Shown in pieces: positions 5,046 through 58,922 of a stretch of DNA of 64,000 nt (within the stretch, counting starts at the first letter, position 1; every line of letters starts with the position of its first letter). The position numbers and the translations under genes were made by a program. The stretch is from Candidatus Kuenenia sp. Lineage in GTDB: Bacteria; Planctomycetota; Planctomycetia; Pirellulales; UBA1268. Below the pieces are notes generated by a model, which did no database searches, was not told where the DNA came from, and saw nothing but the letters and a program-made list of their open reading frames with translations. The stretch spans positions 2,085 through 66,084 of the forward strand of contig JAYQOK010000001.1 in assembly GCA_038144795.1 (NCBI GenBank), written 5' to 3'.

Positions 5046-5110
5046 GGCGATCCTCCATGGGGTGAACGGTTGCGATCGGACCTCAATTGTCAGCGAGGCT
5101 GCCAACAGCG

Positions 5111-6010
5111 TCAACGAGCGGGTGGCTTCGCCCTACCCCGCGGAAACTCCACCAGCGGCGCAAGGTCGCGGAGAGTCGCAGCACCGATACCCGGCACGCG
5201 GTCGAGATCGGACAGCTTGGCATAGGGCCGGCCCTCGATGATCCGGTTGGCCAGCGCCTCGCCCACGCCCGGCAGCCGCATGAGATCATCCCGCGAGGCG
5301 GTGTTCGGATCGATCCGCGTGCCCGGTGGCAGCGTGCCACCGTCAACAGCCTGTTGCAGGTCGCGGGCCTCGTCCCGCTCCAGCCGCCGCTCCTCCGGCA
5401 ACTGATCCCAGTCGGTGAAGGCCCAAATGCCGCGGCCGCGGGTTGCGGCCTGCAACTCAAGATCCCGCAACTGCTCGCGGTAGTCATCGGCTGGTTCACC
5501 AGCGAGCGTGCTGCGGCTCACGCCAAACGCACGGGCCAGCCCGTGTGACACGAGATGCGCGGCAAGATCATAGCCATCGGCATCGAATACAAAGGCATAG
5601 ATTCGTTTGAAGCGACCGTCGCCCCGGCCGTCGGCGAAGCTCGTATGGATCGTGAAGGGCCCGCGTTCAAGAAAAGACCGTGTGGCAACTGTGGCGACCG
5701 CAGCCTGTTCCTTCGCGAATGCGATCGAGTCGGCCGCCGTCGCGCGAACCTGGGTGATCCCGAAATACCGTCGCTGGCTGCGGAGCCGACGGGCGTCGGT
5801 TTCGCCGCTCACATGCTGCTCCACGCAGTCGACGCCGTAGAGCCGCACCGTATGCTCCTCGCCGTCGGGAGTGCGGATGCGAAAACTGTCGCCATCTGCC
5901 CAGTCGGTCGGCACGAGCCTACAGCCCCCGATCGCCACCAGATCGGCCGCCATCAGCGGCCCGGCCGCTACCGTGCCGAGCACCATGACGAGCCAGCGCA
6001 CATGCCACAT
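5111..6010 (-). CDS. secreted thermonuclease (SNase)-like domain fused to a C-terminal ComEA-type helix-hairpin-helix DNA-binding domain
   Basis: ORF 5111..6208, start moved to Met67 ([21 protein letters not shown], signal-like). [26 protein letters not shown] and [16 protein letters not shown] resemble SNase. [31 protein letters not shown]...IPGIGAATL is a ComEA-like HhH pair. Confidence 0.6.
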
Positions 6011-6129
6011 GAATGAAGTCCCGCGTGAAAACGATTTTAAAACGTTTCGCGTGCTCCTGAGCATACCCTGACCACAGCAGGGGCGACGATCGCTTCCTGT
6101 GCGCGGGAAGCAGCGGGTATTCTCTCGCC

Positions 6130-7785
6130 ATGGAAGCGACCGTCTGGACCCACGTGTACGACCCCTTGGGATCGCAGCCGCTCTCCACGCTCGTGGCACT
6201 GCTGCCACTGGCCGTGTTGCTCGGCCTGCTCGCCTTCGCCGGCTGGTCGGCGACGCGGGCCGCCGCTGCGGGGCTGGCTACGGCGCTGGCGATCGCCGTG
6301 AGCGTGGTCGGCATGCCAGCTGATGCCGCCGCCGCCGCGGCACTACATGGCGCCGCGTTCGGCCTCTTCCCGATCGGCTGGATCATTCTCAACGCCATGT
6401 TTCTCTACGCCCTCTCGGTCGAGGCCGGCGGGCTCGACGTGATGAAGCGGTCGGTCACGCGGCTCTCTGCCGACCACCGGGTGCAGGCGTTGCTCATCGC
6501 CTTTTCGTTCGGTGCCTTTCTCGAGGGGGCGGCTGGGTTTGGAGCGCCCGTCGCGATCTCGGCGGCGCTCCTGACCGGCGCCGGCTTTCCGGCGCTCGAG
6601 GCAGCCTGCATCGCCCTCATCGCCAACACGGCGCCGGTGGCCTTCGGCGCCCTCGGCACACCGATCCTCACGCTGGCCAAGGTGACCGGCCTCGACGTGC
6701 AGGCGATCTCGGCGCTGGCCGGCCGGCAGCTGCCCTTCTTCTCGCTCATCATTCCGGCCTGGATGGTCGTGGCGATGGCGGGCTGGCGGGGGCTTGTCGG
6801 CGTCTGGCCAGCGGTGCTCGTCTGCGGCGTATCGTTTGCCAGCGTGCAATTCGCGCTGGCCAACTTCGTGGGGCCGGCGCTGGTTGATGTCGTCGGCGGC
6901 ATCGCCAGCCTGGTGGCGATGGCAATCTTCCTGCGGGTCTGGCGGCCGCAGACGATCTGGCGGCATGGAGCCGTCGTCGACGATCCCGCGACAACGACGA
7001 TTGACCGCGAGCCGCACGACTCGGCCGGCCGCATCGCCTGGGCCTGGATGCCGTGGGCCTTTCTGTCGCTGGCCGTGTTTCTCTGGGGCCTGCCGTCTAT
7101 GAAGGCCACACTCGAAGTGGTCGCACCGCCGCCGGAGGTCCGCGTGCCACGGCTCGACGGCCGCGTCGCCAAGGTGCCGCCGGCCACCCGCGAGCCGCAG
7201 GAGATCGAGCGGGCTGTCTATCGCTTCAACTGGCTCTCGGCCGCCGGCACCGCGATCCTCGTGGCGGCACTGGTGTCGATCCCCTGGCTGGGCCTGTCGT
7301 GGCGACGCGCTGGCGCCATCTGGCTCATCACGCTCCGCCGGCTCACCGAATCGCTCACCACGATCGCCCTCATGCTGGCGCTCGCGTTCGTGACCCGCTA
7401 TTCCGGCACCGACGTCACGCTCGGGCTCGCGCTCACGCAAACCGGCGCGGCCTATGCCTTCTTCGCGCCGCTCTTGGGCTGGCTTGGCGTCGCCCTCACC
7501 GGCAGCGACACCTCAAGCAACGCGATGTTTGGCAGCCTCCAGCGGGTGACAGCTGAGCAGCTCGGGCTCAATCCGCTGCTCACGTGTACGGCCAACAGCA
7601 CCGGCGGCGTGATGGGCAAGATGATCGATGCCCAGAGCATCGTCGTGTCGGCGACGGCCACCGGCGTGCATCGCCAGGAGGGAGCAATCCTGCGGCGGGT
7701 CTTCCCTCACTCACTCGCCCTTGCTCTGCTGATGGGCGTGCTGGTTTGGCTCCAAGCTGGCCCACTCGCCTGGATGGTGCCGTAA
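6130..7785 (+). CDS. L-lactate/glycolate permease (LctP family)
   Basis: 551-aa polytopic membrane protein. FGLFPIGWIILNAMFLY and AFSFGAFLEGAAGFGAPVAI motifs are typical of the LctP family. Confidence 0.85.
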   Translation: MEATVWTHVYDPLGSQPLSTLVALLPLAVLLGLLAFAGWSATRAAAAGLATALAIAVSVVGMPADAAAAAALHGAAFGLFPIGWIILNAMFLYALSVEAGGLDVMKRSVTRLSADHRVQALLIAFSFGAFLEGAAGFGAPVAISAALLTGAGFPALEAACIALIANTAPVAFGALGTPILTLAKVTGLDVQAISALAGRQLPFFSLIIPAWMVVAMAGWRGLVGVWPAVLVCGVSFASVQFALANFVGPALVDVVGGIASLVAMAIFLRVWRPQTIWRHGAVVDDPATTTIDREPHDSAGRIAWAWMPWAFLSLAVFLWGLPSMKATLEVVAPPPEVRVPRLDGRVAKVPPATREPQEIERAVYRFNWLSAAGTAILVAALVSIPWLGLSWRRAGAIWLITLRRLTESLTTIALMLALAFVTRYSGTDVTLGLALTQTGAAYAFFAPLLGWLGVALTGSDTSSNAMFGSLQRVTAEQLGLNPLLTCTANSTGGVMGKMIDAQSIVVSATATGVHRQEGAILRRVFPHSLALALLMGVLVWLQAGPLAWMVP

Positions 7786-43140: not shown

Positions 43141-43500
43141 TTATCGTTCAACCGCTGAGATCGCCCTGCTCGATTGCCCCGGTTGGGGCTTCCCGCTCCT
43201 TTCTGGAATCACCAGGTGCACCACGCCGTCCGAATTCTCGCAGGAACACTCGCCCGGGTTGTTGCGACGGTCTTGGTGCTGGCGTCCAAAGGATGGCCCG
43301 GCCAATGGCACTTCGGCAAACATCACGGAGCTGATGAGCGGCTCGTGAGCCGCGTGTTTTCGTCCTGGCCCCAAACAGCAGTTGCAAGAATGTCCAGCCT
43401 TCCCCTCTGGAGTGATGTTTTTCTTGCCGTCAACGCAGAGTTTCTCCGCGTCCGGCGGCCTCCAGGTGCTCGCACTCTCCCGCTCACAAGTCAGCTGTTC
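43141..43500 (-). CDS. hypothetical Cys/His-rich small protein (start uncertain)
   Basis: 3' part of ORF 43141..43620 (the 5' part overlaps the esterase gene). Contains TCE...LCVDG...GHSCNCC...KHAAH...GECSCE cysteine clusters suggestive of metal binding. No clear start codon or RBS. Confidence 0.3.
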   Translation of the reverse strand, partial: EQLTCERESASTWRPPDAEKLCVDGKKNITPEGKAGHSCNCCLGPGRKHAAHEPLISSVMFAEVPLAGPSFGRQHQDRRNNPGECSCENSDGVVHLVIPERSGKPQPGQSSRAISAVER

Positions 43501-45696: not shown

Positions 45697-45954
45697 TCAG
45701 GAAGGGCCCCAACCAAGAGTTGGATGGTGGGACCTACGAAACACACAGCGCCGTGACGGCTTCCGGAGCCGGTGATTCGGCGAGAACACTCCGTTGTAGG
45801 GATGCCGATGCTCCCGCGGCAGCGGGACGAGATCGGCCAGCTGGTCCAGAAACTCAAACGGCGTGAGTTCGACGACCCCAATGGCCCCCGCCGCGTGGAC
45901 TTCCGCCCGCGCCCTAGGCCGAACCAGTGAGCCGCCTTGCCGCAGTTGCAGCAA
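45697..45954 (-). mobile_element. remnant of an IS91-family (Y2 / PF04986-type) transposase C-terminus
   Basis: ELTPFEFLDQLADLVPLPREHRHPYNGVFSPNHRLR resembles the conserved C-terminal segment of IS91-like transposases (L..L..L.PPPR.H..RY.GV..PN..LR). Only about 50-80 aa remain and no N-terminal part is present. Confidence 0.5.
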
Positions 45955-46011
45955 CGGCCCACCAACCCGCTGTCAGCCCAACAAACAAACAACCAACAGC
46001 CCATGCCATCC

Positions 46012-46707
46012 TCAATCGTCGCAACATCCGTCGTCCCCTTCGGCCACGGCGCCGACGCCCCGGCGAAAACTCCTGATGAGGGCAACCACCCCGCACGCTG
46101 CCACGGCCACCCCGACTACCGGCAACGTCGACGACAGCATGCTCCCCAGGCCAAGCAGGATCAGCAACAGCCCTCCGGCGCATGGTCCGAGCCGGCTCCA
46201 AAGTGCGTGACCAATCTTCGCGATCAGCCAGACCACGAGCAGCCCCGCCAACACAAGCCCGAGACGCGTGCCACGGTCGACCACCCGTTCATCCACGGCC
46301 TCCGCTGTGATGACAAGATCGCCACGGGGGGTGGTGAAGAGATACTCACGACCGCGTGTGGGGATCGAAACGTCAAGGCTGGCAAGCACCAGGCCGGCCT
46401 GAGGTGCGGTGCCAAGCCCCGCCGCGGTCGAGGAACTTGGGGCGACGCCGCTGCCAAATCCGCTGGCAGCACCACCACCCATGCCGCCCATCCCGCCGTA
46501 GCCACCGCCGGCGCGACCACCCATGGTCCCAAACTGGCGAGCCAAACCGAGTTGTTTCTGCTCAGCCTCTTCAACGAGCCGCACGTCACCGAGGGCACCC
46601 GATCTGGGGCCATCGATGGACTTGGCCAGCTGTCGCTGGCTCTGCTCGTCGCCCTGCATCGGAGCGTCGATAACGTCCTGAGCGAGTCGTTGTTGATAGC
46701 GCTGCAC
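46012..46707 (-). CDS. membrane-anchor tail of giant module B2, in frame with the giant ORF but separated from it by a TAA
   Basis: Same reading frame as 46795..54243 (both start coordinates are 1 mod 3), with no further stop in between. A Gly-rich linker is followed by REYLFTTPRGDLVITAEAVDERVVDRGTRLGLVLAGLLVVWLI and more TM helices, paralleling the C-termini of modules A and B1. The tracked start is a GTG without an RBS. Confidence 0.5.
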   Translation of the reverse strand: MQRYQQRLAQDVIDAPMQGDEQSQRQLAKSIDGPRSGALGDVRLVEEAEQKQLGLARQFGTMGGRAGGGYGGMGGMGGGAASGFGSGVAPSSSTAAGLGTAPQAGLVLASLDVSIPTRGREYLFTTPRGDLVITAEAVDERVVDRGTRLGLVLAGLLVVWLIAKIGHALWSRLGPCAGGLLLILLGLGSMLSSTLPVVGVAVAACGVVALIRSFRRGVGAVAEGDDGCCDD

Positions 46708-46794
46708 CTGATCGCGAAGTTCGACACGCTGCTGCTGAGGCTTCGAGGAATCTTCGAATTCTCGCTCTCCACCGCGACCAACCCAGCGTTTATT

Positions 46795-49700
46795 TTAAAT
46801 ATCCTCAAAGCCAACGCCAGACTGGCGACGATCAGCCTCGGCTACCGAAAGTTCGTCGAGGCTCTTCGCGAGCTGGCGCTCCCCGGCAGCCTGTTCGGCA
46901 TCGTTCACGGCCCCTCTGTCGGTGCGCCCAAACCAGTTGGTGTCCACCCAACGCCGGTTGAGAGAACTCGCTTCACCGGCTTGCTCGGCGACACCCTTTT
47001 CGTCTACAGCAAGCTTCGACTGGGGTGTGACCGCCAGACCCGAGGCGTCGAAGTTCAGGTTCAGTTCATTCACCACATTGGTGCCACGCGCCACATTCTG
47101 GCCTTGGAAGTACGACCAGAGCTGAGTCCCATTGCCAACGTTGACCTCGACCGCATCGGCCGGCATCTGGCCCGCCTGCACCTGCGCTTCTTCGACGATC
47201 GAACTGTTGGCCATCAGTTCTCGTTCGAGCCGGTCGTTCGCACCACTCGATTGCCGAGAACTCCGGAAGGTCGAGACATATCCCTGCAACGACTCCCCGA
47301 GCTGCAGGGCGTTGCTGCGTGCTCGCACCCGTGAAAATACATCCTGCGATTCGGATGAAGCCACCTGCATCAGCTGCTGCATCTTCTTGTTTTGGTAGGC
47401 CAAGAAATCGGCCGTGAGTTCGTCAGCGTCGCCGACCATGCGCAGGGTGCCATCGAAGGCAAACCAGCGATGCGTCTCTGGGAGCCAGAGCCGCACCTGA
47501 CTCTGCTCGACATTGATGTTCACTGTTTTGAGGAAAGGGAATCGCAGCGATGCCGTCTGCTCGAGTGGGCCAAGCGTGCCGCCATATGTAAGCACCACCG
47601 CGTAGTCGAGGTCGCCAGCCTGCGTCTTGATCAGCGGAATGCCCACACGGCGCGTGTTGGCGGCATCCATCGCGGTCGGCTTGACCGGTTCACCCGCGAC
47701 GACGGCAGACCAGAGCGAGGCTCCCTCTGGAAGTTCGACTTCGAGCAACTGCTCAGTCTTATTGTCGATACGGTATTCCTGAGTGGCCCGGTAGACGCCA
47801 CCACCGTCGACGGAGAGCGTCGTGACGGCCAGCCCAATCCGCGCCCCCGCCGATTCAACGAGGCTTCGCGACCGCAGGGCGAATGAAAGCTTTGGGGCCT
47901 CGGCGTCGGCCGACACTAGATACGCTTGCGTGGCCATCCCCGGCAGGATGCTCGCCAGGTCACGCCAAGCCGCCTGCTGGCGACTCACCTCGCGGACACC
48001 GTCGCTCTCGGTGACCACGATTTCGTCACGTCCCTGGTTTTCTAAAACGACGAAGCGGTGCTGCGTGCTGCCTGTCTCTATCTGTGGCAGCGCCGCCTCG
48101 TGGGCTACCTCGCGAAGCGGTCCTGTCTGTTCGACGAGGACGGCCAAGGCGCCAATCACCTCGTCCTGCAACCGCACGTGAAACCGCACCATGCCAGGCT
48201 GCTCCGCGACCGGTTCCACAGTCTTCTCGAGCAAGAGGGGCACGTGCACGTCGGCATGCTGAAGGGCTTCCGGGAGCAAAAACACTAACTCGCGAATACC
48301 CGCCTCCGCGATCTCAAAACGAAGCAGCACTGTTTCCACAAGCTCCCGTGGCGTGACCTGCACATTGGTGAGTCCAACTGCCGTGACAATCGGCTGCCTG
48401 CGGCTCACGCGAAAACTCGCCGCAAACGCCGCACCTCGGGCGAAAACGGCAAGCCTCGCGAGGCTTCGTTGCTCCGCGGCCAGCCAGTCAAACGTGCGGG
48501 GCAACGGAATCACCTCGGCATTCTCCAGGCCTACCACGTCGACACTCATCGACGGATCGGCCTGGACGACCACCGTGCTCGTCTGGCGGCTCGCCTCCGG
48601 AAGTACAAACGCAGGTGCTGCCACCGAGAGCCCACTCTCAAGCGTGCCCGTGATTGTTACCGACCACGGCCCCTTGGCTCCCGCCACGAGGTCGATCACA
48701 AGCTGCGTGTCCTCGCCGGGCACGAGCGTCCATCCGGAGAGCCCTGGGCAGCTGACCCGATCCACCGTGACGCCGGCAGGCACTTCCACACGGACGCGGT
48801 GGAGTGGACGATCATCCACCATGCAAGCCAGGCGAGTCTCATAGGTCGACTCCCGCTCCGAGATCCGCACGAGCGTCTGCACATTGGCGGTCAACTGCGC
48901 CTGCAGCGACCGTGCCGCGACCGCGAGGTCGAACCGCTCGTTCGCGAAGCGATACGCCTGGAACGAGCGAACAGTGAGCGGACTGTCGTCGGGAAATCGC
49001 TCGAGGAGCGTGGCAAGGCGATCGGCGGGCGGGTCATCCCGAACCAGCCCCTCAGCATTCACGACACGCAGGTCGACGAGCGGGCCCCGTCGCAGCACGA
49101 GAAAGCCTTGATGCAACACGGCCTCCGGAACCCCAACGGCGGAGAGAGCCAAGGCACTCGCGCCGTCAAACACCACGTCGACCGGGAGCGAAAGCCTGAC
49201 CCACAGCTGCTCGTTGCCAGAAGCCGGCTCGAGCAGCGTCACGTCAATCTGCTGCGCCACAGCCCCGTCGTCGCGATTGAGGCGGCTGATCTCCCAGCCG
49301 CGCACCTTTGGCCCTTGCACCGCTTCGACCAACCAGCCCTCAGGGACATCGAGCGTAAAAACCTCTCGCTGCCCCTGCCGCACATCGAGATCCAACTGCC
49401 ACGCCGCGTGCACCCCATCCTCTCGGACATCGACGACCGCCAGCGACCGAGCCGTGAGCGCCTCATCGACCCGAGCTGCCGAAACTTTCGATATCCACTC
49501 CACGGTGATCGACGCGTCTGCCGCGAGTGCGGTCTCCACGGTTTCCTCAGCCTGCCTCGTCTGCTGGGTGATCAACCCGTCTGCACCGACGACGCGGAGT
49601 TCGGTTTCAGCGGCCGGCACACGCAGCGACAGACGCGTGGCTGGGGCGACGGGGAGCTGGCCACGAATCGATCGCCAGCCTCCGCGCTGTTCCAGGGGGA

Positions 49701-52700
49701 GCCGGATCGTGAGGTTGAGCTGATGACGCCCGATGCCGTCGGCGATCAGCACCACCATCGGTTCTCCTGGATGCGGCGGGAGCACCGCTTGCTGTGCAGC
49801 CTCTTCGGCTGGCTGCTGGAGTGGCTCCACAAGGCGCAGCAGGGCCGGCTTTTGATCAAGCATCGCCCGCTCAAGAACGCCACCGCGCAGTCGCAACGGC
49901 ACCTCAACCGTCTCTTTGGAATAGATCTCCAACTCGAGTGATCCGTTGATCACGAGTTCGCCACTTTCGACGAGCCGCGCGGTGTAGGAGGCTCCGCCGA
50001 AGGCAAACGGAGCGGGCAGTGGGCGGGCAGCCTCCGGCCCATTCCCCTCAGCGATCGCCTTGAGCCTGGCATACTCGGCAAAAGGGATCAGCACCTTGTC
50101 GGCAGCGGCGAGCGCCGTGGCACTCGGCAGTTTGCCGGAGTCTTCTTGGGGATCCTCTGAGGCGTCACCTCCGTCGTAGGGAACAATCACCGTGTTCTCA
50201 GGCACCGAGACAGGCTCGCGTGGGTCGAGTTTCTCGAGAAACTCTGCCACCGTCATGTCACCCGCGGGTGGCTCCCCATCTTGCGCGGCTGCGTGCTCAC
50301 CCGCGGCCAGAAGCGTCAGCCCAACCAGCAGGCCGATCCCCCCATCGGCTGCGGCTCGCCACGGCACACGACGCGTCACCCAGCCGGCGAGATCAATCGC
50401 GACATAACACGGAAGCGCGACCACCGCGACAAAAAAAGCAGGCTGAAAGAGTTCGTGCAGTTGAAAGCCCATCGTCAGCTCCACGGCACTCGGCACGACC
50501 AGGGTGAGCAGGATCGCACTTGCAACCACACGTGCCCGCGCCCGCCAACTTCGACCAACGACCAGGACCCCACTCGCTGCCACCAGCACCGCCAACCCCG
50601 CGGCGACAAAGAACAGCCGAGTTTCCTGCACGAGCGTCGCAGAAAGCACAGGCCTCCCGCCCAAACTCACGAATGTCACGCGATGGCCTTGCTCACCGAG
50701 TTCAATGGGAAGACTGCGGACACCCTCCAGGGCCCATCGAAACGATTCCTGCGATGGTTCAGCGAAGTACACGTTTGCCTGAGGAGCGGAAGCCGGCTGC
50801 GAAGCAGGATCCGCAGGCGCTGACTCCGAAGCCATGCCTGTCGGGGCATTGGCTGCAAAGCCATCGGCAAGCACTGATTCTTTCGCCTTCGCGGCGGAGT
50901 CCTGGTCAAACTGCTCCGCTTTGTCAGCAAGTGCCGCCAACTCAGGTGACGTCGGAGCTGCGGGAGCATCAGAGGCCGCCAGCGGAATCGCCTCTGCGTC
51001 GGTGGCAACGGCATCTTTCCTCCGCGCCAGGAGCAATCGAGAGGGGCGTGCTGCCTGTGGGAGCAACGGTGACGCCACGCCCAACGGCTCAATGCCCCCA
51101 CCAAGCTCCGCGAGCAACCGCAGCGGCGGCGTCAACGACCACGGCCGATCATCCGAGGCGGCCGCAAAGACACTTCCATCACTGCGGACCACTCGGTACC
51201 CATCTGGCAACACCACCTGCCACTCCACATCCGCCAGCGGAACCTCGAATCGGGTTGCCCCATCCTCACTGCGAACCGCCAACCGCGGCGAATCCTCGCG
51301 CACCTGCCCACTCCAGCCGTACGTTGTCGATGCCATCTCGTAGACGATGGTCACATCGCGAAGCACCTGCTGATCACTCGTATTTGGCAGGCTGACCAGC
51401 AAGTCCTCTCCATCTCGCTGCGGCAACGAGGGGGAACCGTCGATCGTGATCGACCACAGGTTGGCCCCCGCAGGCAACGTGAGTTGGAGAAATGACGCAT
51501 TGGTGCGGAGCAGAAACCGGGCAGCGGTCTGACTCGTCCCGTTGGCCCCCTGAAGGGTGACCAACGCCGCCCGCTGAGTGATCGCGGTGGGCAGCCCGTA
51601 GCCCGGGCGTCGCTCCACCTCCGCCGTCACCGCCGCCGTCCCAGAAAACCCGTAGACGCCAAGCAGCCTCCGCCCCACCTGAGCCTCAGCATCCACCAGC
51701 TCTCCCACATCGATTCGCCGCCCTTCGGTCACAAGCGACACGCTGACTTCAGGGTTTCCTTCGACCGCGACGGCCGCCGACTGGTAGGCCACGCCTTCGG
51801 CAACGACACAGGGCAGATCGATCTGCGTCTCTTCCTCCACGGTGAGCGGTTCTTCAAAATCGATCGCCACACCAGCCTGGCCGCGGGTGTGATCGGCAAG
51901 TCTGGCCGTCCAGACCCGTCGTCCGTCCTCCTCACGGCTTGAGAACTCGGTGACCTGCACACCCTGCAAACCGCGCAGCGAGATTGTTTTGGGGGTGCTC
52001 GCCGGCAGGGAAAAACTCAGGCTCGTCGCCGCGGCACGCTGGATGTTGTAGAGCACCTCAGCATGGGTGGCGACTGCTTCGTTTTCGATCCGAAAGAAGT
52101 GAAACGAACGGGCGGTCAGGGCGGGTGTCTTCCGAGTTGCTAGAAAACGCACCTCAACCTCCTCGCCATCGAGGCGATAGGCGAACGTACCCTCGTCTGC
52201 GGACAGCCCCAAGGCTTCTAACTCACGTCGCGCGAGCGGAATCACCCCAGCGATCTGCTGGGGTTGCACGGCGAGATCATCTGTCGCCGTGATGGCAACG
52301 GCACCTTCGCGACGTTCCGCCCCATCGACGTTCACCATCGGAAACACCACCGGCATTTCAGCCCAGGTATCGAGCCAGCCGTCCGGGACACGCGTCGCCT
52401 CCAACGACAGCCGCACTTCGCCCCCAGCCGCAACGGCGTGGGGCAGCCTCACCAGAATGCCGCTTGCCCCTTTCTCACCGCCGACCACAGGGGCAAACGC
52501 AAGCAATGCATCTTGGGCATCGGTCACGCCAGTCACCTCCCAGCCGCGCGGAAGCCGCAGTTTCACGGCAAAGAGCGGATCGACCCGTGGTGAAAGCGAA
52601 ACCGTCGCCCGCAGTCGCAACTCCGCCTCGCGGAGCGTCAGGAGGGTGGCCGTCGTGGCATCGACGCCCGAAGAAGGTCGTTTCAGCTGGCTGCGCACCG

Positions 52701-53934
52701 TGGCCGTCGCGTCGGTTGCAAGCCACGCCCCAACGGCTCGCAGGGTTGCCGCACGAGGCTCCGCCTGCATCACACTCGCCGGGAGAACTTCCGCAAAGAC
52801 GGCTGTGTCGATCGGGATCAGTCGGACGGCATCAAACGACTCGGCGACCAAACGCTCATCGAGCAGCAAGCCAAGCAGCGACGTGTGGCTGGCCACATCG
52901 AGTGGCTCGATTCTTGGCATCACCCACTCGCCAAGCAGCGGACGACTTGAGCCCCCTGCGTTGGTGGACGCCGCCGTGATCCCCAGTGTGACCGAGTCCA
53001 TCAGCGGCTCGTGGAGCTGCACTTCGAGGACCCGCCCCTCTCCATCGTCTGGCTGCACAACCACCCAACGGCTCACCTGCGCAGCCGAGACATCCGTGAC
53101 CTCAAGCCCATCTGGGAGCCGAAACCGAAACTGCGTCACCGCTCCCCGCAGCACCCGCATCGTGAGCGTGGCGTGCAGCCGTTCCGCAGCCTGGGTGACC
53201 TCATCGACGATCACACTGCTCGCCTCAACCACCCGCTGGCTCGCCGTCGTGCGATTGTTCAGCGACATCACAAGGCTCTGGTCGCCCCGTGCCACTGGCA
53301 GTTCAAACGACGTCGCTCCTGCGGCTTCGTCAAACGACCGCGACAGGGCAGGGCTCCGCATTTCCACATTGCCAGGAACGGTGAGCCGCAGCTGCGTCGC
53401 AGCCGGAGTCGGCACACGGAAGGAGACCGCCTGCTGTGCCGCCGAGGCCTCAATGCGGGTCGTTCCTTCAAGCGTCAACGCGTGACGACCCACGCCTTCC
53501 ACAAAGAGCCGCAAGCCCCCATCCTCGCCGCGACCGAGCACGGCGACCGCCCCGTCGAGGGACGCGGAGAGCAGCCCCACGCGATCAAGGTCGAGCGGCA
53601 CGGCATGGAGCCCGGGTGCGAGCACCTCAACCTCCAAGGAGCCTTGCAGAAACGCCCGTTCGCCGGCCATCCGGATCTGATAGTCCGCCGACACGAGCAG
53701 CGTGTCGCGCGGCACCGGCGCCTCGGGCTCGGCAGGCTTCGCGCGGGCGAGGAGGTCTTGATACTCCTCGCGACTGACAAACACCCGCTCGGCGCGCCCG
53801 TCGAGCAGCAAGTCGAGATCGGCATACGGCACAAAGATCTCTCGCACCGGCTGCGACTCATCGGCCATCGCCTGCCCGAGCACCGCACCGAAGCAGCATG
53901 CGAGCAACACGCGCCACAGAAGAAGGCTACGCAT
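46795..53934 (-). CDS. giant secreted/membrane protein B (2379 aa), a fusion of two paralogous modules (B1+B2); no recognisable domain
   Basis: ORF 46795..54243. Met104 gives a signal peptide (MRSLLLWRVLLACCFGAVLGQAMA) and an 8-nt overlap with the stop of module A. An internal cluster of 4 TM helices at 50257..50619 separates two halves that each repeat the architecture of module A. Confidence 0.8.
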   Translation of the reverse strand: MRSLLLWRVLLACCFGAVLGQAMADESQPVREIFVPYADLDLLLDGRAERVFVSREEYQDLLARAKPAEPEAPVPRDTLLVSADYQIRMAGERAFLQGSLEVEVLAPGLHAVPLDLDRVGLLSASLDGAVAVLGRGEDGGLRLFVEGVGRHALTLEGTTRIEASAAQQAVSFRVPTPAATQLRLTVPGNVEMRSPALSRSFDEAAGATSFELPVARGDQSLVMSLNNRTTASQRVVEASSVIVDEVTQAAERLHATLTMRVLRGAVTQFRFRLPDGLEVTDVSAAQVSRWVVVQPDDGEGRVLEVQLHEPLMDSVTLGITAASTNAGGSSRPLLGEWVMPRIEPLDVASHTSLLGLLLDERLVAESFDAVRLIPIDTAVFAEVLPASVMQAEPRAATLRAVGAWLATDATATVRSQLKRPSSGVDATTATLLTLREAELRLRATVSLSPRVDPLFAVKLRLPRGWEVTGVTDAQDALLAFAPVVGGEKGASGILVRLPHAVAAGGEVRLSLEATRVPDGWLDTWAEMPVVFPMVNVDGAERREGAVAITATDDLAVQPQQIAGVIPLARRELEALGLSADEGTFAYRLDGEEVEVRFLATRKTPALTARSFHFFRIENEAVATHAEVLYNIQRAAATSLSFSLPASTPKTISLRGLQGVQVTEFSSREEDGRRVWTARLADHTRGQAGVAIDFEEPLTVEEETQIDLPCVVAEGVAYQSAAVAVEGNPEVSVSLVTEGRRIDVGELVDAEAQVGRRLLGVYGFSGTAAVTAEVERRPGYGLPTAITQRAALVTLQGANGTSQTAARFLLRTNASFLQLTLPAGANLWSITIDGSPSLPQRDGEDLLVSLPNTSDQQVLRDVTIVYEMASTTYGWSGQVREDSPRLAVRSEDGATRFEVPLADVEWQVVLPDGYRVVRSDGSVFAAASDDRPWSLTPPLRLLAELGGGIEPLGVASPLLPQAARPSRLLLARRKDAVATDAEAIPLAASDAPAAPTSPELAALADKAEQFDQDSAAKAKESVLADGFAANAPTGMASESAPADPASQPASAPQANVYFAEPSQESFRWALEGVRSLPIELGEQGHRVTFVSLGGRPVLSATLVQETRLFFVAAGLAVLVAASGVLVVGRSWRARARVVASAILLTLVVPSAVELTMGFQLHELFQPAFFVAVVALPCYVAIDLAGWVTRRVPWRAAADGGIGLLVGLTLLAAGEHAAAQDGEPPAGDMTVAEFLEKLDPREPVSVPENTVIVPYDGGDASEDPQEDSGKLPSATALAAADKVLIPFAEYARLKAIAEGNGPEAARPLPAPFAFGGASYTARLVESGELVINGSLELEIYSKETVEVPLRLRGGVLERAMLDQKPALLRLVEPLQQPAEEAAQQAVLPPHPGEPMVVLIADGIGRHQLNLTIRLPLEQRGGWRSIRGQLPVAPATRLSLRVPAAETELRVVGADGLITQQTRQAEETVETALAADASITVEWISKVSAARVDEALTARSLAVVDVREDGVHAAWQLDLDVRQGQREVFTLDVPEGWLVEAVQGPKVRGWEISRLNRDDGAVAQQIDVTLLEPASGNEQLWVRLSLPVDVVFDGASALALSAVGVPEAVLHQGFLVLRRGPLVDLRVVNAEGLVRDDPPADRLATLLERFPDDSPLTVRSFQAYRFANERFDLAVAARSLQAQLTANVQTLVRISERESTYETRLACMVDDRPLHRVRVEVPAGVTVDRVSCPGLSGWTLVPGEDTQLVIDLVAGAKGPWSVTITGTLESGLSVAAPAFVLPEASRQTSTVVVQADPSMSVDVVGLENAEVIPLPRTFDWLAAEQRSLARLAVFARGAAFAASFRVSRRQPIVTAVGLTNVQVTPRELVETVLLRFEIAEAGIRELVFLLPEALQHADVHVPLLLEKTVEPVAEQPGMVRFHVRLQDEVIGALAVLVEQTGPLREVAHEAALPQIETGSTQHRFVVLENQGRDEIVVTESDGVREVSRQQAAWRDLASILPGMATQAYLVSADAEAPKLSFALRSRSLVESAGARIGLAVTTLSVDGGGVYRATQEYRIDNKTEQLLEVELPEGASLWSAVVAGEPVKPTAMDAANTRRVGIPLIKTQAGDLDYAVVLTYGGTLGPLEQTASLRFPFLKTVNINVEQSQVRLWLPETHRWFAFDGTLRMVGDADELTADFLAYQNKKMQQLMQVASSESQDVFSRVRARSNALQLGESLQGYVSTFRSSRQSSGANDRLERELMANSSIVEEAQVQAGQMPADAVEVNVGNGTQLWSYFQGQNVARGTNVVNELNLNFDASGLAVTPQSKLAVDEKGVAEQAGEASSLNRRWVDTNWFGRTDRGAVNDAEQAAGERQLAKSLDELSVAEADRRQSGVGFEDI

Positions 53935-56900
53935 CGTTGCCTCCTTTGTTGCTCGCGAACTGGTCGAGAAGCGGCACCGAAGCATCGAGTTCAAGGGGTG
54001 GGCCATCCGCGGCAGCGCCGGGCTTGGCCGCGGGCGGCGAGGCCGTCTTTCGCGGGCGACAACGCGTGGCGGCTCCCACGAGCCACAGCAGCCCAACTCC
54101 GCCCAACCCCACCGCGAAATACTGATCGATGATCTGCATGGCCAGCATGGGAACGAGGATGCCCATCGCCACCAGCCCGCTTGCGAGCAGCACGAGCACT
54201 GCGAGTTTCGTGGAGAACCGCGATCGCATAAACACCAGCCCAATCAGCGTGAGCCCTGCCAACACGCCCCCGGTCACCAACCGCTCGTCAACGGCGATGA
54301 TCTTCAGGGAACCCTCTGGTGGTGGACTCGGCCGCAGGGCGGTAAAGCGATACGACCGTCCGTCCGTCGCGAAGGACCGCAGCCTCCCCTGGTCAACCGC
54401 CACGCCCTCGCTCACCCAGACGAGCAAGTCGCTGTCGTCGCCCGTTCTCCATGGAAGCCCGTTGAGCTGCGCAAAAAAGTCTTTCTGCTCGTTGGTCCAA
54501 GGCCCACGGGTGTCGAGTACGGCCAGTTCATCCGGCAGCGCAACCACCAGCGACACCTTCTGAACGGCTGGCTCGGTGGCCACACCACTCTGTTCTGGAA
54601 AGACCGGAAGATCGAGTTGGTCGTAGGTGCCAGGGAGCGTGTAGCGCATTTCCACGAGACACGGCTGATCATGTCCCTGGGCAATCAGCGGAATAAACAG
54701 TTGCTCCCCTTCGCCTCGTTCAAGCGGCTGTGGCTGCCCATTAATGGTGAGCATGTCCATGTCGAACTGGCTGCCAACTGGCAACGTCACGGCCAACCGC
54801 TGCAGCACACTTCGCACCCGATAGATGGCCTGCACGGTGATCTCGTCGCTGCGGGTGACCACCATCCGCACCACAGCACGTTCGATACTCGCCCGCTTCA
54901 CTTCCTCAAGTTCATACCGAGTGGCGGTGACCGTCAGCCCCCAGGCGTCGGTAAACTCAAACGCCCGAGCCACATCAGCCCCGTTCGCCCCAGGCATCAA
55001 GTCATGCTGGGGATCGATCGGCCGCAGTCCACTGAATCCTGGGGCGGGCCGGACATCGAGGGTCTCCGCTTTGCTCACCAGGATCTGCCCCCAGGCGCGA
55101 TCCACGCCACGCGGGGTAAGGACAGGCAGCGGATATTCTCCGCTCTCCCCAACGGCGAGTTCAGGCACGACCTCTTCCCAGGTCAACGGCACCATCACCT
55201 GGCCAAGCAGTTCTCCCTCGCCCGTAAACTCCAGGGCCACGTCTCCCTCGGCCACGTCTTCGGGCTGCGGCTCAAGTGCTCGCTTGGTGATGCCCGAGTT
55301 CACGGGCATGCGTGCAATCGCCGCAACTTCCGCAGGCAGGTCGATCCGCAGCGAACTGACTGGACTGTAGGCCACATCAAACGTGAACGTCGCCTTGGAG
55401 GTCACCACGCCCGAGTCGACGTCGACAGCGAGCAACTGCCTGGCAGTCACCTGCGGGCGACGTCGCTCCGCCGAGAGAGTGAGGCTGGCGGCGTCTTGGG
55501 CATAGGCAAATGCCATCACTTCCCGCAGGCCGGGCGCGCGGCCGTCACGAATACTCGGCACCTCGCTACGAGCATCGACCACCGCGACATCTTGCAACTT
55601 CGAGCGACTCGTCGGTGTCAGCTGCAAACTCTCGGGCCCGAGCACCACGAGCCGACCGCTGGTGCGGCGCACCGGGGTGACGATGGTGAGCAGAGGGAGC
55701 TCGAGAGTGCTCGTCTGTCCCGTGGCTGCAAGCAGATTGGGATCGTCGAGGGGCTTGATGAGCGTCACCACCAGCCCGACCCGGCCAAGCGCCTTGCTCG
55801 CTAGATTGATCGAAAGCCGGCCGCTCGCGTCGTCGGCGAGGTGGAAGGTGTCGACGTTGACGGGCTGGCTCTCACCCAGCTGTCGCCCCTGTACCCGGCG
55901 CACCTCATAACCCGACGGAACGGCCATCTCCAGCTGGAACACGCCCGCGTCTTCGATGCCAAAGATCGTGGCCACATCGAGCACGAGTTGATTGGGTTCC
56001 ACGTACGCTTCGATGAGTTGCTGCGCCTCGATCCTCGGTTGCACCGCCTCGATGTCGAGCTCGAGCGCAAACGGCATCGTCGCCGCACGGTAGGCAAAGT
56101 CCCACGGAATGGCGCGAACCGGTTCTGGCAACTCAGTCGCATCCAGTTGCAGCAGCCCCTCGGTGACCGCTGCCTCGCCACGGAGTTCGTCCGTCAGCCG
56201 CACCACGACCACCCCCTGCTGCCGGCTCACGCCAACCGCCTGCACGCTTGGAATGGAAAGATGCGAGCGGCTCGCCTCATCGAGAATCTGCTCCAGCTCG
56301 ACCGAGAGCTGCTGCTGATCACGCACCGGCTCAAACAAATCCACCGTGATCCTTTGCAGTCCATCGACCTCAGCCACATCCCACTGCCGTACGTTGGCAT
56401 CGGCCACCCGCGTGATCTTCTGACCGGCAGGCACGTCGACGACCAGCTGCGGCAACTCGGCTCGGCTGACGTCGTAGGTCAGTTCTGCACGCGTCCGCAG
56501 GAGCCCTTCATCCACGGTGACCTCTTGCCGCGACTGCACGCTGGCGACCGCCGCCATCCCCGACGCCCCTTCCGCCTTCGGCGTCCAGTCGATGCGAACA
56601 CTCGCCGCCGGCCCGACAAACGCAAGCACAACTGTCTCGTCTTCACGCGGAGGCTCACCATCGCCCCCCTCCGGAGGCACTTCGGCCGCCGCGAGCATCG
56701 GCTGCACGTTGACCGTCACTCCCGACTGCGGCACGCGAATCCGCCAACGGTTGACGGCCGCTCGGGGCGACTCAAATGAAACCGAGTTCTGACCAGGAGA
56801 CTTGGCATAGGCCTTGGAGTAGTCAAGTGAGAGGGTAAGCGTGCGGGGAGCGTCACCTTCATGCTCGACGAGCAGCATCGAACTGCCGTCGCCGGCCACC

Positions 56901-57385
56901 ACCACCCGCGCGGCCTTGGCGTCCAGCGTGGCGGAACGGACAGCAGCATCGGCGAGCCGCAAGGGAATCTCGTGCCACCCCTTTCCAAGGAGTTCGATCG
57001 AAACCTCAGCCCGCACCCGCACGACATCCGCCTCAACCGTCGCCTCGCTCTCGATCTCGGTGATCACCGCGCCCACGGGCGGCGGGGCGTCGGGCTGCGG
57101 CTCATCCGCAAGGCGGGCCTTCTTCCAGAGTTCCTGAAACTTTTCGTAGGGGATGAAAACGCCTCGGCCATCTTCCTCAAAGAAGCCCCGCAGCTTGCGG
57201 TAAGGAATGTAGATCGTCTGCTCGCGCAGCGGCGGCAGGCCAGACGCCTCTGCGGAAGCATCCGCTTGGGCGTCGGCCGGTGCGTCCGAAACCGGCTGCT
57301 CTTCTTGGGCCCACGCGAGAGACACCGCAAGAAGCATCGCCACGAGGCCCGCCGCCAAACCCTTCCCGAAGATTCGATTTTCCAT
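53927..57385 (-). CDS. giant secreted/membrane protein A (1152 aa), paralogous to both halves of B; no recognisable domain
   Basis: ORF 53927..57484. Met34 gives a signal peptide (MENRIFGKGLAAGLVAMLLAVSLAWA). Three C-terminal TM helices. N-terminal motif IYIPYRKL...VFIPYEKFQELW is shared with B1 and B2. Confidence 0.8.
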   Translation of the reverse strand: MENRIFGKGLAAGLVAMLLAVSLAWAQEEQPVSDAPADAQADASAEASGLPPLREQTIYIPYRKLRGFFEEDGRGVFIPYEKFQELWKKARLADEPQPDAPPPVGAVITEIESEATVEADVVRVRAEVSIELLGKGWHEIPLRLADAAVRSATLDAKAARVVVAGDGSSMLLVEHEGDAPRTLTLSLDYSKAYAKSPGQNSVSFESPRAAVNRWRIRVPQSGVTVNVQPMLAAAEVPPEGGDGEPPREDETVVLAFVGPAASVRIDWTPKAEGASGMAAVASVQSRQEVTVDEGLLRTRAELTYDVSRAELPQLVVDVPAGQKITRVADANVRQWDVAEVDGLQRITVDLFEPVRDQQQLSVELEQILDEASRSHLSIPSVQAVGVSRQQGVVVVRLTDELRGEAAVTEGLLQLDATELPEPVRAIPWDFAYRAATMPFALELDIEAVQPRIEAQQLIEAYVEPNQLVLDVATIFGIEDAGVFQLEMAVPSGYEVRRVQGRQLGESQPVNVDTFHLADDASGRLSINLASKALGRVGLVVTLIKPLDDPNLLAATGQTSTLELPLLTIVTPVRRTSGRLVVLGPESLQLTPTSRSKLQDVAVVDARSEVPSIRDGRAPGLREVMAFAYAQDAASLTLSAERRRPQVTARQLLAVDVDSGVVTSKATFTFDVAYSPVSSLRIDLPAEVAAIARMPVNSGITKRALEPQPEDVAEGDVALEFTGEGELLGQVMVPLTWEEVVPELAVGESGEYPLPVLTPRGVDRAWGQILVSKAETLDVRPAPGFSGLRPIDPQHDLMPGANGADVARAFEFTDAWGLTVTATRYELEEVKRASIERAVVRMVVTRSDEITVQAIYRVRSVLQRLAVTLPVGSQFDMDMLTINGQPQPLERGEGEQLFIPLIAQGHDQPCLVEMRYTLPGTYDQLDLPVFPEQSGVATEPAVQKVSLVVALPDELAVLDTRGPWTNEQKDFFAQLNGLPWRTGDDSDLLVWVSEGVAVDQGRLRSFATDGRSYRFTALRPSPPPEGSLKIIAVDERLVTGGVLAGLTLIGLVFMRSRFSTKLAVLVLLASGLVAMGILVPMLAMQIIDQYFAVGLGGVGLLWLVGAATRCRPRKTASPPAAKPGAAADGPPLELDASVPLLDQFASNKGGNDA

Positions 57386-57522
57386 GAACGTCGCCCTATG
57401 GCCCCGCCGGTCCCAACTCACGCCAATCGGGATCCAGCGTAGTTCCCCGTGCTCGTTTGAGCGAATTTCCCACGGATTCCGCACCTATTGTAAGGCTGAG
57501 AGCCCCTTGGACGCCGATCGCC

Positions 57523-57707
57523 TGGCTTCGACGCCTCATGTCCGACGCCGCTCAGAGGCTGTGAATATTGATCACGGCCAACTCGTCGGGCGATGCTTGA
57601 AAGATTGCCCGGTCGTCGTGGACCTGCACGAGCTCACCCCAGTCGATCGGCGGGCCACGAGCGGAAGAGACGGGCGGCGGCTCGAGTGGTTCGCCACCCG
57701 GGCCATG
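57523..57707. repeat. 185-bp direct repeat, copy 1
   Basis: 178/185 identical to 58738..58922 at a fixed offset of 1215 bp. Contains the 3' end of small ORF 57552..57776 (-). Confidence 0.9.
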
Positions 57708-57776
57708 AGCTTCGCTCAGGCAATCCGTGACGTGTCGTGCGAAGCATTCGCTGTCGCCGCAACAACTACTTTGCAA
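57552..57776 (-). CDS. small ORF S1 (74 aa) whose C-terminal 52 aa are encoded by repeat copy 1; coding status doubtful
   Basis: The C-terminus GPGGEPLEPPPVSSARGPPIDWGELVQVHDDRAIFQASPDELAVINIHSL is paralogous to S2. Three of 6 in-ORF differences between copies are synonymous in this frame. The N-terminus overlaps the DUF1080 stop region. Confidence 0.25.
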   Translation of the reverse strand: MQSSCCGDSECFARHVTDCLSEAHGPGGEPLEPPPVSSARGPPIDWGELVQVHDDRAIFQASPDELAVINIHSL

Positions 57777-58506
57777 GTTCGCGAAACATTACCTTCCGCC
57801 AGCGGACAGAGTAGGGGCCCGTTCCTTTGGCAATGCCGTGCACCTGAAAGCCAATGTGGCCCTCAGGATCGTGTGGCTGATGGAAGTCGGCGGTGGGGAC
57901 GTCGTTGATCCAACTGCGGTAGTGATCGCCTTGGACAACAATCCGGTATGCATTCCACTCGCCTTTGACAAACGCGGCCTTGGCCGCATCGGTGCGAATG
58001 CCTTGCGTCTGTGTGAGTTCGCTCCACCAGTTGCCGCGACGTGCCTCGTCCCAAAAGTCACCCGCGGTGCCATTGATTGCGATTTCACACTGTGGTCCGA
58101 AGAGACGTCCGGGTGGCAGGGCGTTCTGGGCGCCTTCTTCCGGCCCGTCGCCTTCCTTCGAGAGGTGGCTTCGCACCTGCACGCCCGAGTTCAGTTCGTC
58201 ATCGACGAGCACTTCGAAGGTCAGTTCAAAGTCGCCGACGGGCTTCGCGGTGGCAAGAAACGTGTTCGGGCTTCCGTCGGCAGTGGTGCCGATCAGCACG
58301 CCGTCTTTGATTTCGTAGGTGGCGGTGCCGCTGACGATTTGAAAGCCTTCGAGGCTGCCGTTTCCAAACCAGTGCACCCAGCCAGAGTCTTTCTCAGCTG
58401 CCACTGCAGAAGACGGAGATGAAGCGGCCAGCACGACCGTGCAGCCCATGGCGACAACACACATCAGGTGGCGAACAGGCCGGAAGGAATCGCGAATTTG
58501 CATCAT
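57766..58506 (-). CDS. DUF1080 (3-keto-disaccharide hydrolase-like) domain protein, secreted
   Basis: ORF 57766..58575. Start placed at the ATGATG (Met24) with GGGAG 4 nt upstream, followed by a signal peptide. GWVHWFGNGSLEGF...YEIKDGVLIG...GDFELTFEV...NSGVQVR...IGFQVHG pattern of DUF1080. Confidence 0.85.
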   Translation of the reverse strand: MMQIRDSFRPVRHLMCVVAMGCTVVLAASSPSSAVAAEKDSGWVHWFGNGSLEGFQIVSGTATYEIKDGVLIGTTADGSPNTFLATAKPVGDFELTFEVLVDDELNSGVQVRSHLSKEGDGPEEGAQNALPPGRLFGPQCEIAINGTAGDFWDEARRGNWWSELTQTQGIRTDAAKAAFVKGEWNAYRIVVQGDHYRSWINDVPTADFHQPHDPEGHIGFQVHGIAKGTGPYSVRWRKVMFRELAK

Positions 58507-58540
58507 GAAACTCCCATGAACAAAGACCTCTTGAAAAATT

Positions 58541-58560
58541 GGATAACGGATAACGGATAG
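58541..58560. repeat. tandem 7-bp repeat GGATAAC x about 3
   Basis: ggataac ggataac ggatag, 35-54 nt upstream of the DUF1080 start codon. Confidence 0.8.
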
Positions 58561-58592
58561 CCCGGTCAATGGCACCTCCGCAACGACTGCCT

Positions 58593-58625
58593 AGCTCATG
58601 AGCAGCTCATGAGCAGCTCATGAAC
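58593..58625. promoter_or_regulatory. 3 x 11-bp tandem repeat with a palindromic core (AGCTCATGAGC), candidate operator
   Basis: agctcatgagc agctcatgagc agctcatgaac. Each unit contains the palindrome GCTCATGAGC (first two units) or CTCATGA (third). Lies about 90-120 nt upstream of the DUF1080 start. Confidence 0.45.
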
Positions 58626-58683: not shown

Positions 58684-58737
58684 ACAATGGCGTTTTTCTC
58701 GCGTCGGTGCAGACCGCATTACAGTCGGCCGTTCCCG

Positions 58738-58922
58738 TGGCTTCGACGCCTCCTGTCCGACGCCGCTCAGAGGCTGTGAATATCGATCACGACCAACTCG
58801 TCGGGCGACGCTTGAAAGATTGCCCGGTCGTCATGGACCTGCACGAGCTCACCCCAGTCGTTCGGCGGGCCACGAGCGGAAGAGACGGGAGGCGGCTCGA
58901 GTGGTTCGCCACCCGGGCCATG
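58738..58922. repeat. 185-bp direct repeat, copy 2
   Basis: See copy 1. Its distal end (58922) coincides with an abrupt switch to AT-richer sequence. Confidence 0.9.

What the first reader, a model, noticed from the sequence alone, without database searches (positions are those of the whole stretch)
46707..46797. An in-frame TAA cuts the third giant module off from its membrane-anchor tail
ORF B stops at a TAA (46795..46797) inside a conspicuous AT run (GAT ATT TAA AAT AAA) in an otherwise GC-rich gene. Reading on in the same frame there is no further stop: ...GVGFEDI*NKRWVGRGGEREFEDSSKPQQQRVELRDQ(V)QRYQQ.... That frame then runs 260 more codons to 46012.

This tail contains the element that ends modules A and B1:
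- A: SYRFTALRPSPPPEGSLKIIAVDERLVTGGVLAGLTLIGLVF.
- Tail: REYLFTTPRGDLVITAEAVDERVVDRGTRLGLVLAGLLVVWLI.

The only candidate start for an independent tail gene is a GTG with no Shine-Dalgarno sequence. The possibilities are a recent nonsense mutation (decay of the last module), a sequencing or assembly error, stop-codon readthrough, or a deliberately split soluble/anchored pair.
Basis: seen in the sequence. Interest (0 to 1): 0.65.

Follow-up and report, generated by a model that had tools for sequence, protein, structure and literature searches.

The report
Record-only stop codon in giant gene
The stop codon that seems to cut a giant planctomycete membrane protein from its anchor exists only in this sequence record, inside a 20-base patch of five odd substitutions, so it is most likely a local assembly or sequencing error.

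Summary
On the minus strand a TAA (46797..46795) ends a 2,379-codon ORF. The same frame stays open for 260 more codons and encodes the conserved anchor tail.

The stop is not seen anywhere else. Contigs assembled independently from three estuary metagenome runs match the window across 60 kb. The one place where all of them disagree with it, and none supports it, is five substitutions within 20 nt (46782, 46784, 46792, 46797, 46801). Those contigs read GAG ATT GAA AAG AAA CGC TCG CTT (E-I-E-K-K-R-S-L) where the window reads GAT ATT TAA AAT AAA CGC TGG GTT.

Four further runs, holding strains about 10% divergent, also read GAA, as do the two closest genomes. That makes seven runs from five studies. 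No indexed run holds the TAA-version 31-mers. In 61 of 61 related loci the body and the anchor lie in one uninterrupted frame, typically 2,600-2,800 codons. Tail-only database proteins that I checked were contig-edge fragments or pieces of frameshift-ridden long-read assemblies.

All five changes are transversions and all are nonsynonymous. The tail is still under purifying selection.

Most likely this is a local consensus error and the real gene is one 2,640-codon ORF (46012..53934). A private, very recent clustered mutation cannot be excluded. Readthrough or a designed split is not supported.

The parts
46795..46797 (-). In-frame TAA of the record. It reads GAA (Glu) in every other source.
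   Evidence: Searches show the window sequence. Searches show + strand A>C at 46797 in all contigs of seven runs. Searches show Glu in L001 and L002.
46782..46801 (.). Record-specific patch of five transversions: + strand 46782 C (others G), 46784 C (G), 46792 A (C), 46797 A (C), 46801 A (C). On the coding strand these are E>D, E>stop, K>N, S>W and L>V.
   Evidence: Searches show that in 40-60 kb this is the only place where X1-X3 differ from the window. Searches show nothing comparable in 1-40 kb. One search gives the translation of both versions. One search finds no run holding the window version.
46798..53934 (-). ORF B as it stands in the record: 2,379 codons, made of modules B1 and B2. 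ATG 53934 follows AAAGGAGG and overlaps the stop of A by 8 nt.
46012..46794 (-). Tail: 260 codons plus TGA, in frame with B. It holds a disordered or low-complexity linker, the anchor motif and three predicted TM helices.
   Evidence: hydropathy; profile E=2.6e-30; pN/pS 0.22 against L001.
46012..53934 (-). Inferred true gene: one ORF of 2,640 codons (B + Glu + tail).
   Evidence: Searches show 61/61 related loci continuous, with ORFs typically 2,600-2,800 codons. Searches show single ORFs in L001 and L002. One search shows many 2,500-2,750-aa proteins with the tail at their extreme C-terminus.
46675..46707 (-). Conserved V/L-x-R-Y-Q-Q-R-L-x-Q motif. Its first codon is the GTG proposed as the start of an independent tail gene.
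   Evidence: alignment columns ~1045-1057; coordinates.
46294..46386 (-). Conserved pre-anchor element LASLDVSIPTRGREYLFTTPRGDLVITAEAV. It corresponds to SYRFTAL...IIAVDERLV in A and RSLPIELGEQGHRVTFVSLGGRPVLSATLV in B1.
46075..46269 (-). Three hydrophobic segments of the tail, the predicted membrane anchor.
   Evidence: Kyte-Doolittle scan; coordinates.
50299..50634 (-). Hydrophobic cluster (4 segments, B residues 1101-1212) that ends module B1 and precedes B2.
53927..57385 (-). Gene A (1,152 codons), a single-module paralogue with its own C-terminal anchor. It lies immediately upstream of B in relatives too.
   Evidence: One search shows an A-like gene upstream of the B-like gene in about 50 loci. 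One search shows the exact protein on a Logan contig of SRR26337511.

Best explanation
The TAA is most likely a local error in this particular assembly, not a feature of the organism. A 20-nt stretch of the consensus (46782-46801) carries five wrong bases, and one of them turns a GAA (Glu) codon into TAA.

The real gene would then be a single 2,640-codon ORF (53934..46012, minus strand). It encodes a two-module envelope protein: signal peptide, module B1, a four-helix membrane cluster, module B2, a disordered charged/Gln-rich linker, a conserved LASLD..RGxxYxFTTPRG element, and three C-terminal membrane helices. With gene A just upstream, it forms a two-gene cassette that is conserved across Planctomycetota.

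**Shown:** the patch is unique to the record, all other sources read sense codons, and orthologues are uninterrupted.

**Inferred:** the patch arose during sequencing or assembly, for example from an error-laden read bridging a low-coverage spot, and not in a living cell.
For: 1. Logan contigs of three runs from one estuary study (X1-X3, depth 5-8) match the window across 1-60 kb, apart from a few isolated run-specific SNPs. At 46782-46801 all three differ from the window at the same five bases, and no contig supports the window.
2. X4, X5, X7 and X9 come from four other studies and hold strains about 10% divergent. All of their contigs read C at 46797 (+ strand), which is GAA.
3. An 80-nt query in which every 31-mer overlaps a variant base (46752-46831) is held by no indexed run. 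The surrounding 1 kb is held by 20 runs.
4. The closest genomes read ..FEEIEKKRSFGRGGE.. (L001, 93% nt identity) and ..FEDIEKKRSLGRGGE.. (L002).
5. In 61 of 61 related loci that have both anchor points, body and tail share one frame with no internal stop. The three apparent stops are the natural ends of the proteins.
6. All five changes are transversions and all five are nonsynonymous. Natural differences from L001 are 62% transitions and 74% synonymous in the body. The pattern looks like random damage or error, not selected variation.
7. The tail is under purifying selection (pN/pS 0.22 against 0.13 for the body) and is identical to the public contigs, so it has not decayed.
8. Public contigs break close to this spot in three runs, which suggests a weak spot in coverage or in the assembly graph: X2 at 46699-46712, X3 with a gap at 46735-46770, and X4 at 46810-46814.
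9. Local assembly errors that corrupt protein-coding sequences are a documented class in MAGs (PMC7111523).
Against: - The reads behind this record could not be inspected. The public runs are held only as contigs, and contigs drop rare variants.
- Five substitutions with no indel is not the commonest form of assembler error.
- Two of the five window bases do occur as natural alleles in more distant strains. G(-) at 46782, giving Val, is in X4. T(-) at 46801, giving Asp, is in one minor X5 contig, and L002 also has Asp. The patch is therefore not wholly unprecedented sequence.
- The origin of the window's assembly, and whether it used runs X1-X3, is unknown.
Confidence: 0.74

Rival explanations
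1. The stop is a real but private and very recent clustered mutation. A multi-nucleotide event, such as an error-prone repair patch, in the sampled clone truncated B after module B2. The protein would lose its last anchor and stay tethered by the B1 helix cluster, and the tail would become an untranslated remnant.
For: - The record does contain the sequence.
- All five changes being nonsynonymous transversions fits fresh mutation as well as it fits error.
- An intact tail is compatible with a very recent event.
- The stop falls in a linker that is poorly conserved and predicted to be disordered, so truncation might be tolerated. pLDDT is below 50 over the last ~80 residues before the stop.
Against: - None of seven runs or two related genomes shows it.
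- No indexed run holds its 31-mers.
- The window matches X1-X3 across 60 kb apart from a few isolated run-specific SNPs. It therefore represents the same population, whose majority reads GAA in all three runs.
- Five hits in 20 nt with none elsewhere in 60 kb is extreme for spontaneous mutation.
- The anchor is retained in 61/61 orthologues, so its loss should be selected against.
Confidence: 0.2
2. The stop is a programmed feature. Either TAA readthrough or recoding yields both a truncated and a full-length anchored form, or the locus is a deliberately split soluble/anchored gene pair with the tail starting at GTG 46707.
For: The only support is that the frame stays open and the downstream part is conserved.
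Against: - A programmed signal should be conserved, but the stop is absent from all relatives and from the same population in other runs.
- There is no Shine-Dalgarno motif before the GTG.
- The GTG lies inside the conserved RYQQRLxQ motif, which is internal in orthologues.
- Of the tail-only proteins in the databases, the two I looked up were a contig-edge fragment (P0038) and a piece of a frameshift-ridden long-read assembly (P0044).
- The other long ORFs in the window give no sign of an altered genetic code.
Confidence: 0.02
3. The patch results from targeted hypervariation, either a diversity-generating retroelement acting on this segment or a strain-chimeric or recombination tract from a co-occurring relative.
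For: - The substitutions are clustered.
- Two of the five window bases exist as alleles in other strains.
Against: - The window contains no second (template) copy of the region. The best matches elsewhere are at most 17 nt.
- The changes are not adenine-specific.
- A donor strain should also bring synonymous differences, yet all five changes are nonsynonymous, and three of them, including the stop, occur in no strain.
Confidence: 0.03

Closest known systems
Local assembly errors in metagenome-assembled genomes (Chen, Anantharaman, Shaiber, Eren & Banfield 2020, PMC7111523)
   Same: A short stretch of consensus has no support outside the record and corrupts a protein-coding gene. It lies next to places where other assemblies of the same population break.
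   Different: The defining test is that not even one read gives perfect support. I could apply it only by proxy, using 31-mer indexes and independent contigs, not the source reads. This case is a pure substitution patch, with no indel or repeat collapse.
Nonsense-mutation pseudogenes or split genes in bacteria
   Same: An in-frame stop separates a conserved C-terminal part, and the frame stays open downstream.
   Different: The stop is absent from the same population in other runs. The downstream part shows no decay. The stop is embedded in a five-substitution cluster and is not a single point mutation.
Giant genes fragmented by errors in long-read MAGs, as seen here in homologues of B
   Same: The gene family appears as several short ORFs, including tail-only pieces such as P0044 (257 aa) on a 393-kb contig. 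These are artefacts.
   Different: Those breaks appear to be frameshifts that also fragment the neighbouring genes. Here there is a single substitution-type stop in an otherwise clean record.
Programmed stop-codon readthrough or recoding
   Same: An in-frame stop is followed by conserved coding sequence.
   Different: The stop is not conserved in any relative, and no recoding context is known for TAA in bacteria (my own knowledge). The comparative test fails.

Membership tests
Local assembly/consensus error | The consensus in the region has no perfect support from reads | tested here: inconclusive
   By proxy only. No indexed run holds the window-version 31-mers. All contigs of seven runs disagree with the window. 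The source reads were not available.
Local assembly/consensus error | Independent assemblies of the same population give a different and mutually consistent sequence | tested here: met
   X1, X2 and X3 give the same five alternative bases and match the window over 60 kb apart from a few isolated run-specific SNPs.
Genuine nonsense pseudogene | The stop is present in the organism's DNA in independent data | tested here: not met
   It is absent from seven runs, from L001 and L002.
Genuine nonsense pseudogene | Relaxed constraint or decay downstream of the stop | tested here: not met
   Tail pN/pS against L001 is 0.22, compared with 0.13 for the body. The tail is identical to the public contigs. 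This test cannot detect a very recent event.
Programmed readthrough / natural split gene pair | The stop, or the two-gene arrangement, is conserved in orthologues | tested here: not met
   61/61 loci are continuous. L001 and L002 have single ORFs.
Programmed readthrough / natural split gene pair | A proper start and ribosome-binding site for the downstream gene | tested here: not met
   There is no GGAGG-like motif before GTG 46707, and the GTG lies inside a conserved internal motif.
Diversity-generating retroelement target | A template repeat near-identical to the variable region, with differences at template adenines | tested here: not met
   The window has no second copy of 46700-46900. The substitutions are C/A and G/C, not adenine-specific. 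The window was not searched for a reverse transcriptase.
Any curated protein family for A / B / tail | A significant match to a Pfam or NCBIfam model | tested here: not met
   Pfam and NCBIfam give no families at E<=0.1 for A, B or the tail. For 30 homologues, Pfam gives none beyond incidental DUF1559 and GntR matches. There is no meaningful PDB sequence or fold match.

The most novel reading that the evidence does not exclude
The five-base patch is real in a rare clone. A single clustered mutational event truncated a deeply conserved giant envelope protein just before its last membrane anchor. That would be a natural experiment showing the third anchor is dispensable, and an example of multi-nucleotide mutagenesis in a planctomycete.
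Probability: 0.18. Interest if true: 0.3.

Novelty: not a real feature. Interest (0 to 1): 0.1.

Why it matters
The main value is quality control. As deposited, the record would yield a truncated 2,379-aa protein and an orphan 231-aa ORF for what is, in every comparable genome, a single protein of about 2,640 aa. Annotation and any pseudogene or split-gene inference drawn from it would be wrong.

The case also shows how to separate a record artefact from biology without the original reads. The approach is to compare independent assemblies of the same population and to check that the junction is continuous in orthologues.

A side result is that the A-B cassette is widespread in Planctomycetota and has no curated family. 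It carries three paralogous modules of roughly 1,150-1,430 aa, each ending in the same pre-anchor element plus membrane helices.

Tried and rejected
- **Pfam and NCBIfam on A, B and the tail:** nothing. Pfam on 30 homologues gave only incidental hits.
- **PDB profile search:** only low-complexity matches.
- **AlphaFold model of the last 450 aa of B2:** mean pLDDT 74, with a beta-sandwich, long helices and a disordered end. Foldseek against PDB gave only generic beta-sandwich hits with TM below 0.25. No functional assignment follows.
- **Exact-protein look-up of B as it stands in the record:** not on record. The look-up of A found only one Logan contig, so the source assembly could not be identified.
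- **IUPAC pattern covering both versions of the patch against JGI metagenome contigs:** no match. My first pattern, was mistyped.
- **DGR idea:** rejected, because there is no template copy.
- **Stand-alone tail proteins as evidence for a natural split:** rejected. Of the two I looked up, P0038 is a contig-edge fragment and P0044 is a piece of a fragmented long-read assembly. The other short hits were not looked up individually.
- **Apparent internal stops in L001, L062 and L063:** these are the natural gene ends, which tblastn had overrun.
- **Conserved downstream partners of the cassette:** none. The context after B varies between loci.
Full report

Yes, for this record. The minus strand reads ...GGC TTT GAG GAT ATT TAA AAT AAA CGC TGG GTT GGT..., with the TAA at 46797..46795.

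The ORF that ends there is listed as 46795..54243. Its likely start is ATG 53934, which follows AAAGGAGG and overlaps the stop of the upstream gene A by 8 nt. That gives 2,379 codons. The same frame then runs 260 codons further, to a TGA at 46014..46012.

The AT run is conspicuous. Only seven 15-nt stretches in the 64-kb window (61.6% GC) have at least 13 A/T, and this is the only one inside the giant gene.

The first start codon downstream of the stop is GTG 46707, and it has no Shine-Dalgarno-like motif upstream.

**2. Is the tail the missing anchor?**

Yes.

- Hydropathy shows C-terminal hydrophobic clusters in A (1035-1107), at the end of B1 (B 1101-1212) and in the tail (174-244).
- blastp aligns the tail with the C-terminus of A (36% over 83 aa, E=1.6e-4).
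- A profile built from seven orthologous tails, without the window's own sequence, scores the window tail at 2.6e-30. Its best, weak hits in A and B fall exactly at residues 1005-1083 and 1071-1153, which are the ends of modules A and B1.
- The N-terminal part of A also aligns with the start of B2 (24.7% over 466 aa, E=1.7e-13).

The three-module picture therefore holds.

**3. The decisive finding: the stop belongs to this record only.**

Twenty public runs hold 31-mers from the surrounding 1 kb.

Contigs assembled independently (Logan) from three estuary-metagenome runs of one study (X1-X3, depth 5-8) match the window over 1-60 kb, apart from a few isolated run-specific SNPs. There is one exception. 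At 46782, 46784, 46792, 46797 and 46801 all three runs carry the same alternative bases (+ strand G, G, C, C, C against C, C, A, A, A in the window). No contig supports the window there.

On the coding strand the public version reads GAG ATT GAA AAG AAA CGC TCG CTT, which is E-I-E-K-K-R-S-L. The window reads D-I-stop-N-K-R-W-V.

Four more runs from four other studies (X4, X5, X7, X9) hold strains about 10% divergent. All of their contigs read GAA at the stop position.

I also queried 46752-46831, an 80-nt stretch chosen so that every 31-mer overlaps one of the five bases. No indexed run holds it. A scan of JGI metagenome contigs for either version found nothing.

**4. Relatives.**

A scan of one genome per species returned 80 loci, nearly all from Planctomycetota MAGs labelled Pirellulales, Planctomycetales or Phycisphaerae.

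The closest is L001 (JAPOIM010000073.1, 93% nt identity), which reads GVGFEEIEKKRSFGRGGE. L002 reads VNFEDIEKKRSLGRGGE. Both have Glu at the stop position and a single long ORF.

For 61 loci I could locate both a conserved body segment and the anchor motif. In all 61 they lie in one frame. The three apparent internal stops were the natural gene ends, which the alignment had overrun. Where the contig allows, stop-to-stop ORF lengths cluster at 2,600-2,800 codons. B + 1 + tail is 2,640.

In the protein alignment the stop falls in a poorly conserved, gap-rich linker. The candidate GTG is the first residue of a conserved [VL]xRYQQRLxQ motif that is internal in all homologues. An AlphaFold model of the last 450 residues of B2 gives a confident beta-sandwich, then long helices, then about 80 residues with pLDDT below 50 running up to the stop.

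An exhaustive search with the tail found 475 relatives. Many are proteins of 2,500-2,750 aa with the match at their extreme C-terminus. I looked up two of the short hits that resemble stand-alone tails. One is a contig-edge fragment (P0038). The other is a piece of a long-read assembly in which the giant gene and its neighbours are chopped into many ORFs (P0044).

There is thus no evidence for a natural split.

**5. What kind of change is it?**

- All five differences are transversions: G>T three times and C>G twice on the coding strand.
- All five are nonsynonymous.
- Between the window and L001, natural differences in the body are 62% transitions (303 of 491) and 74% synonymous (362 of 491).

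The patch therefore looks like unselected damage or error, not imported natural variation. Five changes within 20 nt, with none comparable in 60 kb, cannot be independent events.

The tail remains under purifying selection (pN/pS 0.22, against 0.13 for the body).

Public contigs tend to break near this spot. X2 breaks at 46699-46712, X3 has a gap at 46735-46770, and X4 breaks at 46810-46814. This suggests a thin or branched part of the assembly graph, where an error-laden read could end up in a consensus.

Local assembly errors that corrupt coding sequences are a documented class in MAGs (PMC7111523).

One caveat applies. Two of the five window bases also occur as natural alleles in more distant strains. 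Val at 46782 is in X4. Asp at 46801 is in a minor X5 contig and in L002. The stop, Asn and Trp occur nowhere else.

**6. Verdict on mechanism.**

Most likely (about 0.74) the TAA is a local consensus error. The organism would then have one 2,640-codon gene encoding a two-module, membrane-anchored envelope protein.

A private, very recent clustered mutation (about 0.2) cannot be excluded without the source reads.

Programmed readthrough, a designed soluble/anchored pair, and DGR-type hypervariation are not supported. The stop is not conserved, there is no ribosome-binding site, and the window holds no template copy of the region.

**7. What the gene is.**

A (1,152 aa) and B form a syntenic pair in about 50 of the loci. 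The downstream context varies.

None of A, B or the tail, nor 30 homologues, matches a Pfam or NCBIfam family. PDB sequence and fold searches give only generic beta-sandwich similarity.

The neighbouring genes are typical of Pirellulales: PSCyt/PSD families, DUF1501, DUF1552 and a 3-keto-disaccharide hydrolase.

The function of the cassette remains unknown. The architecture, with a signal peptide, large beta-rich ectodomains and membrane helices, points to a cell-envelope role. That is inference only.

**8. Novelty and score.**

The anomaly is best classed as not a real biological feature, so interest is low (0.1).

The most novel reading still open is a genuine clustered truncating mutation in a rare clone. 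I give it a probability of about 0.18 and modest interest if true.

Noticed in passing
window 46012-57385 (-), and loci L001-L080: The A + B cassette has three paralogous modules of roughly 1,150-1,430 aa, each ending in a similar pre-anchor element plus membrane helices. It is conserved in synteny in about 50 Planctomycetota loci and has no Pfam, NCBIfam or PDB relative. It is a widespread giant envelope-protein family that has not been characterised.
   Followed up: partly
window 57513-57707 and 58728-58922: A 195-nt direct repeat (95% identical) flanks the 3-keto-disaccharide hydrolase gene (57766-58575, minus strand). The sequence just upstream of gene A's start is duplicated upstream of the hydrolase gene.
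   Followed up: no
window 43305-43350 and 58561-58620: Similar short intergenic elements (ggNcaatggcacNtcNgcaa ... gctNatgagcNgctcNtgagc) occur at both places. At both, contigs of all three public runs branch off to unlike sequence (loose ends at 43330/43370 and 58555/58585). This is probably a multi-copy dispersed repeat.
   Followed up: partly
window 3247-3405: All three runs have a contig that joins 3295 to 3386, skipping 90 nt, and there are many loose ends around it. This may be a repeat or a length-variable segment, or a second place where the record differs from the public assemblies.
   Followed up: no
L082 (ENA ERZ25039597 contig_24639) 1-6774: In a 393-kb contig the orthologous giant gene is called as six consecutive ORFs (1028, 348, 56, 206, 331 and 257 aa), and neighbouring genes are fragmented too. 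This is consistent with frameshift errors in a long-read assembly. It probably explains many N-terminally truncated homologues that sit on very long contigs.
   Followed up: partly
window 45914-46027 (-): A 37-codon ORF (MLRRLRMAWAVGCLFVGLTAGWWAVAATAARRLTGSA) starts at an ATG 13 nt before the tail's TGA, in another frame. It is hydrophobic and resembles a signal peptide. The 1 kb downstream has no clear gene and no nucleotide match in L001.
   Followed up: no
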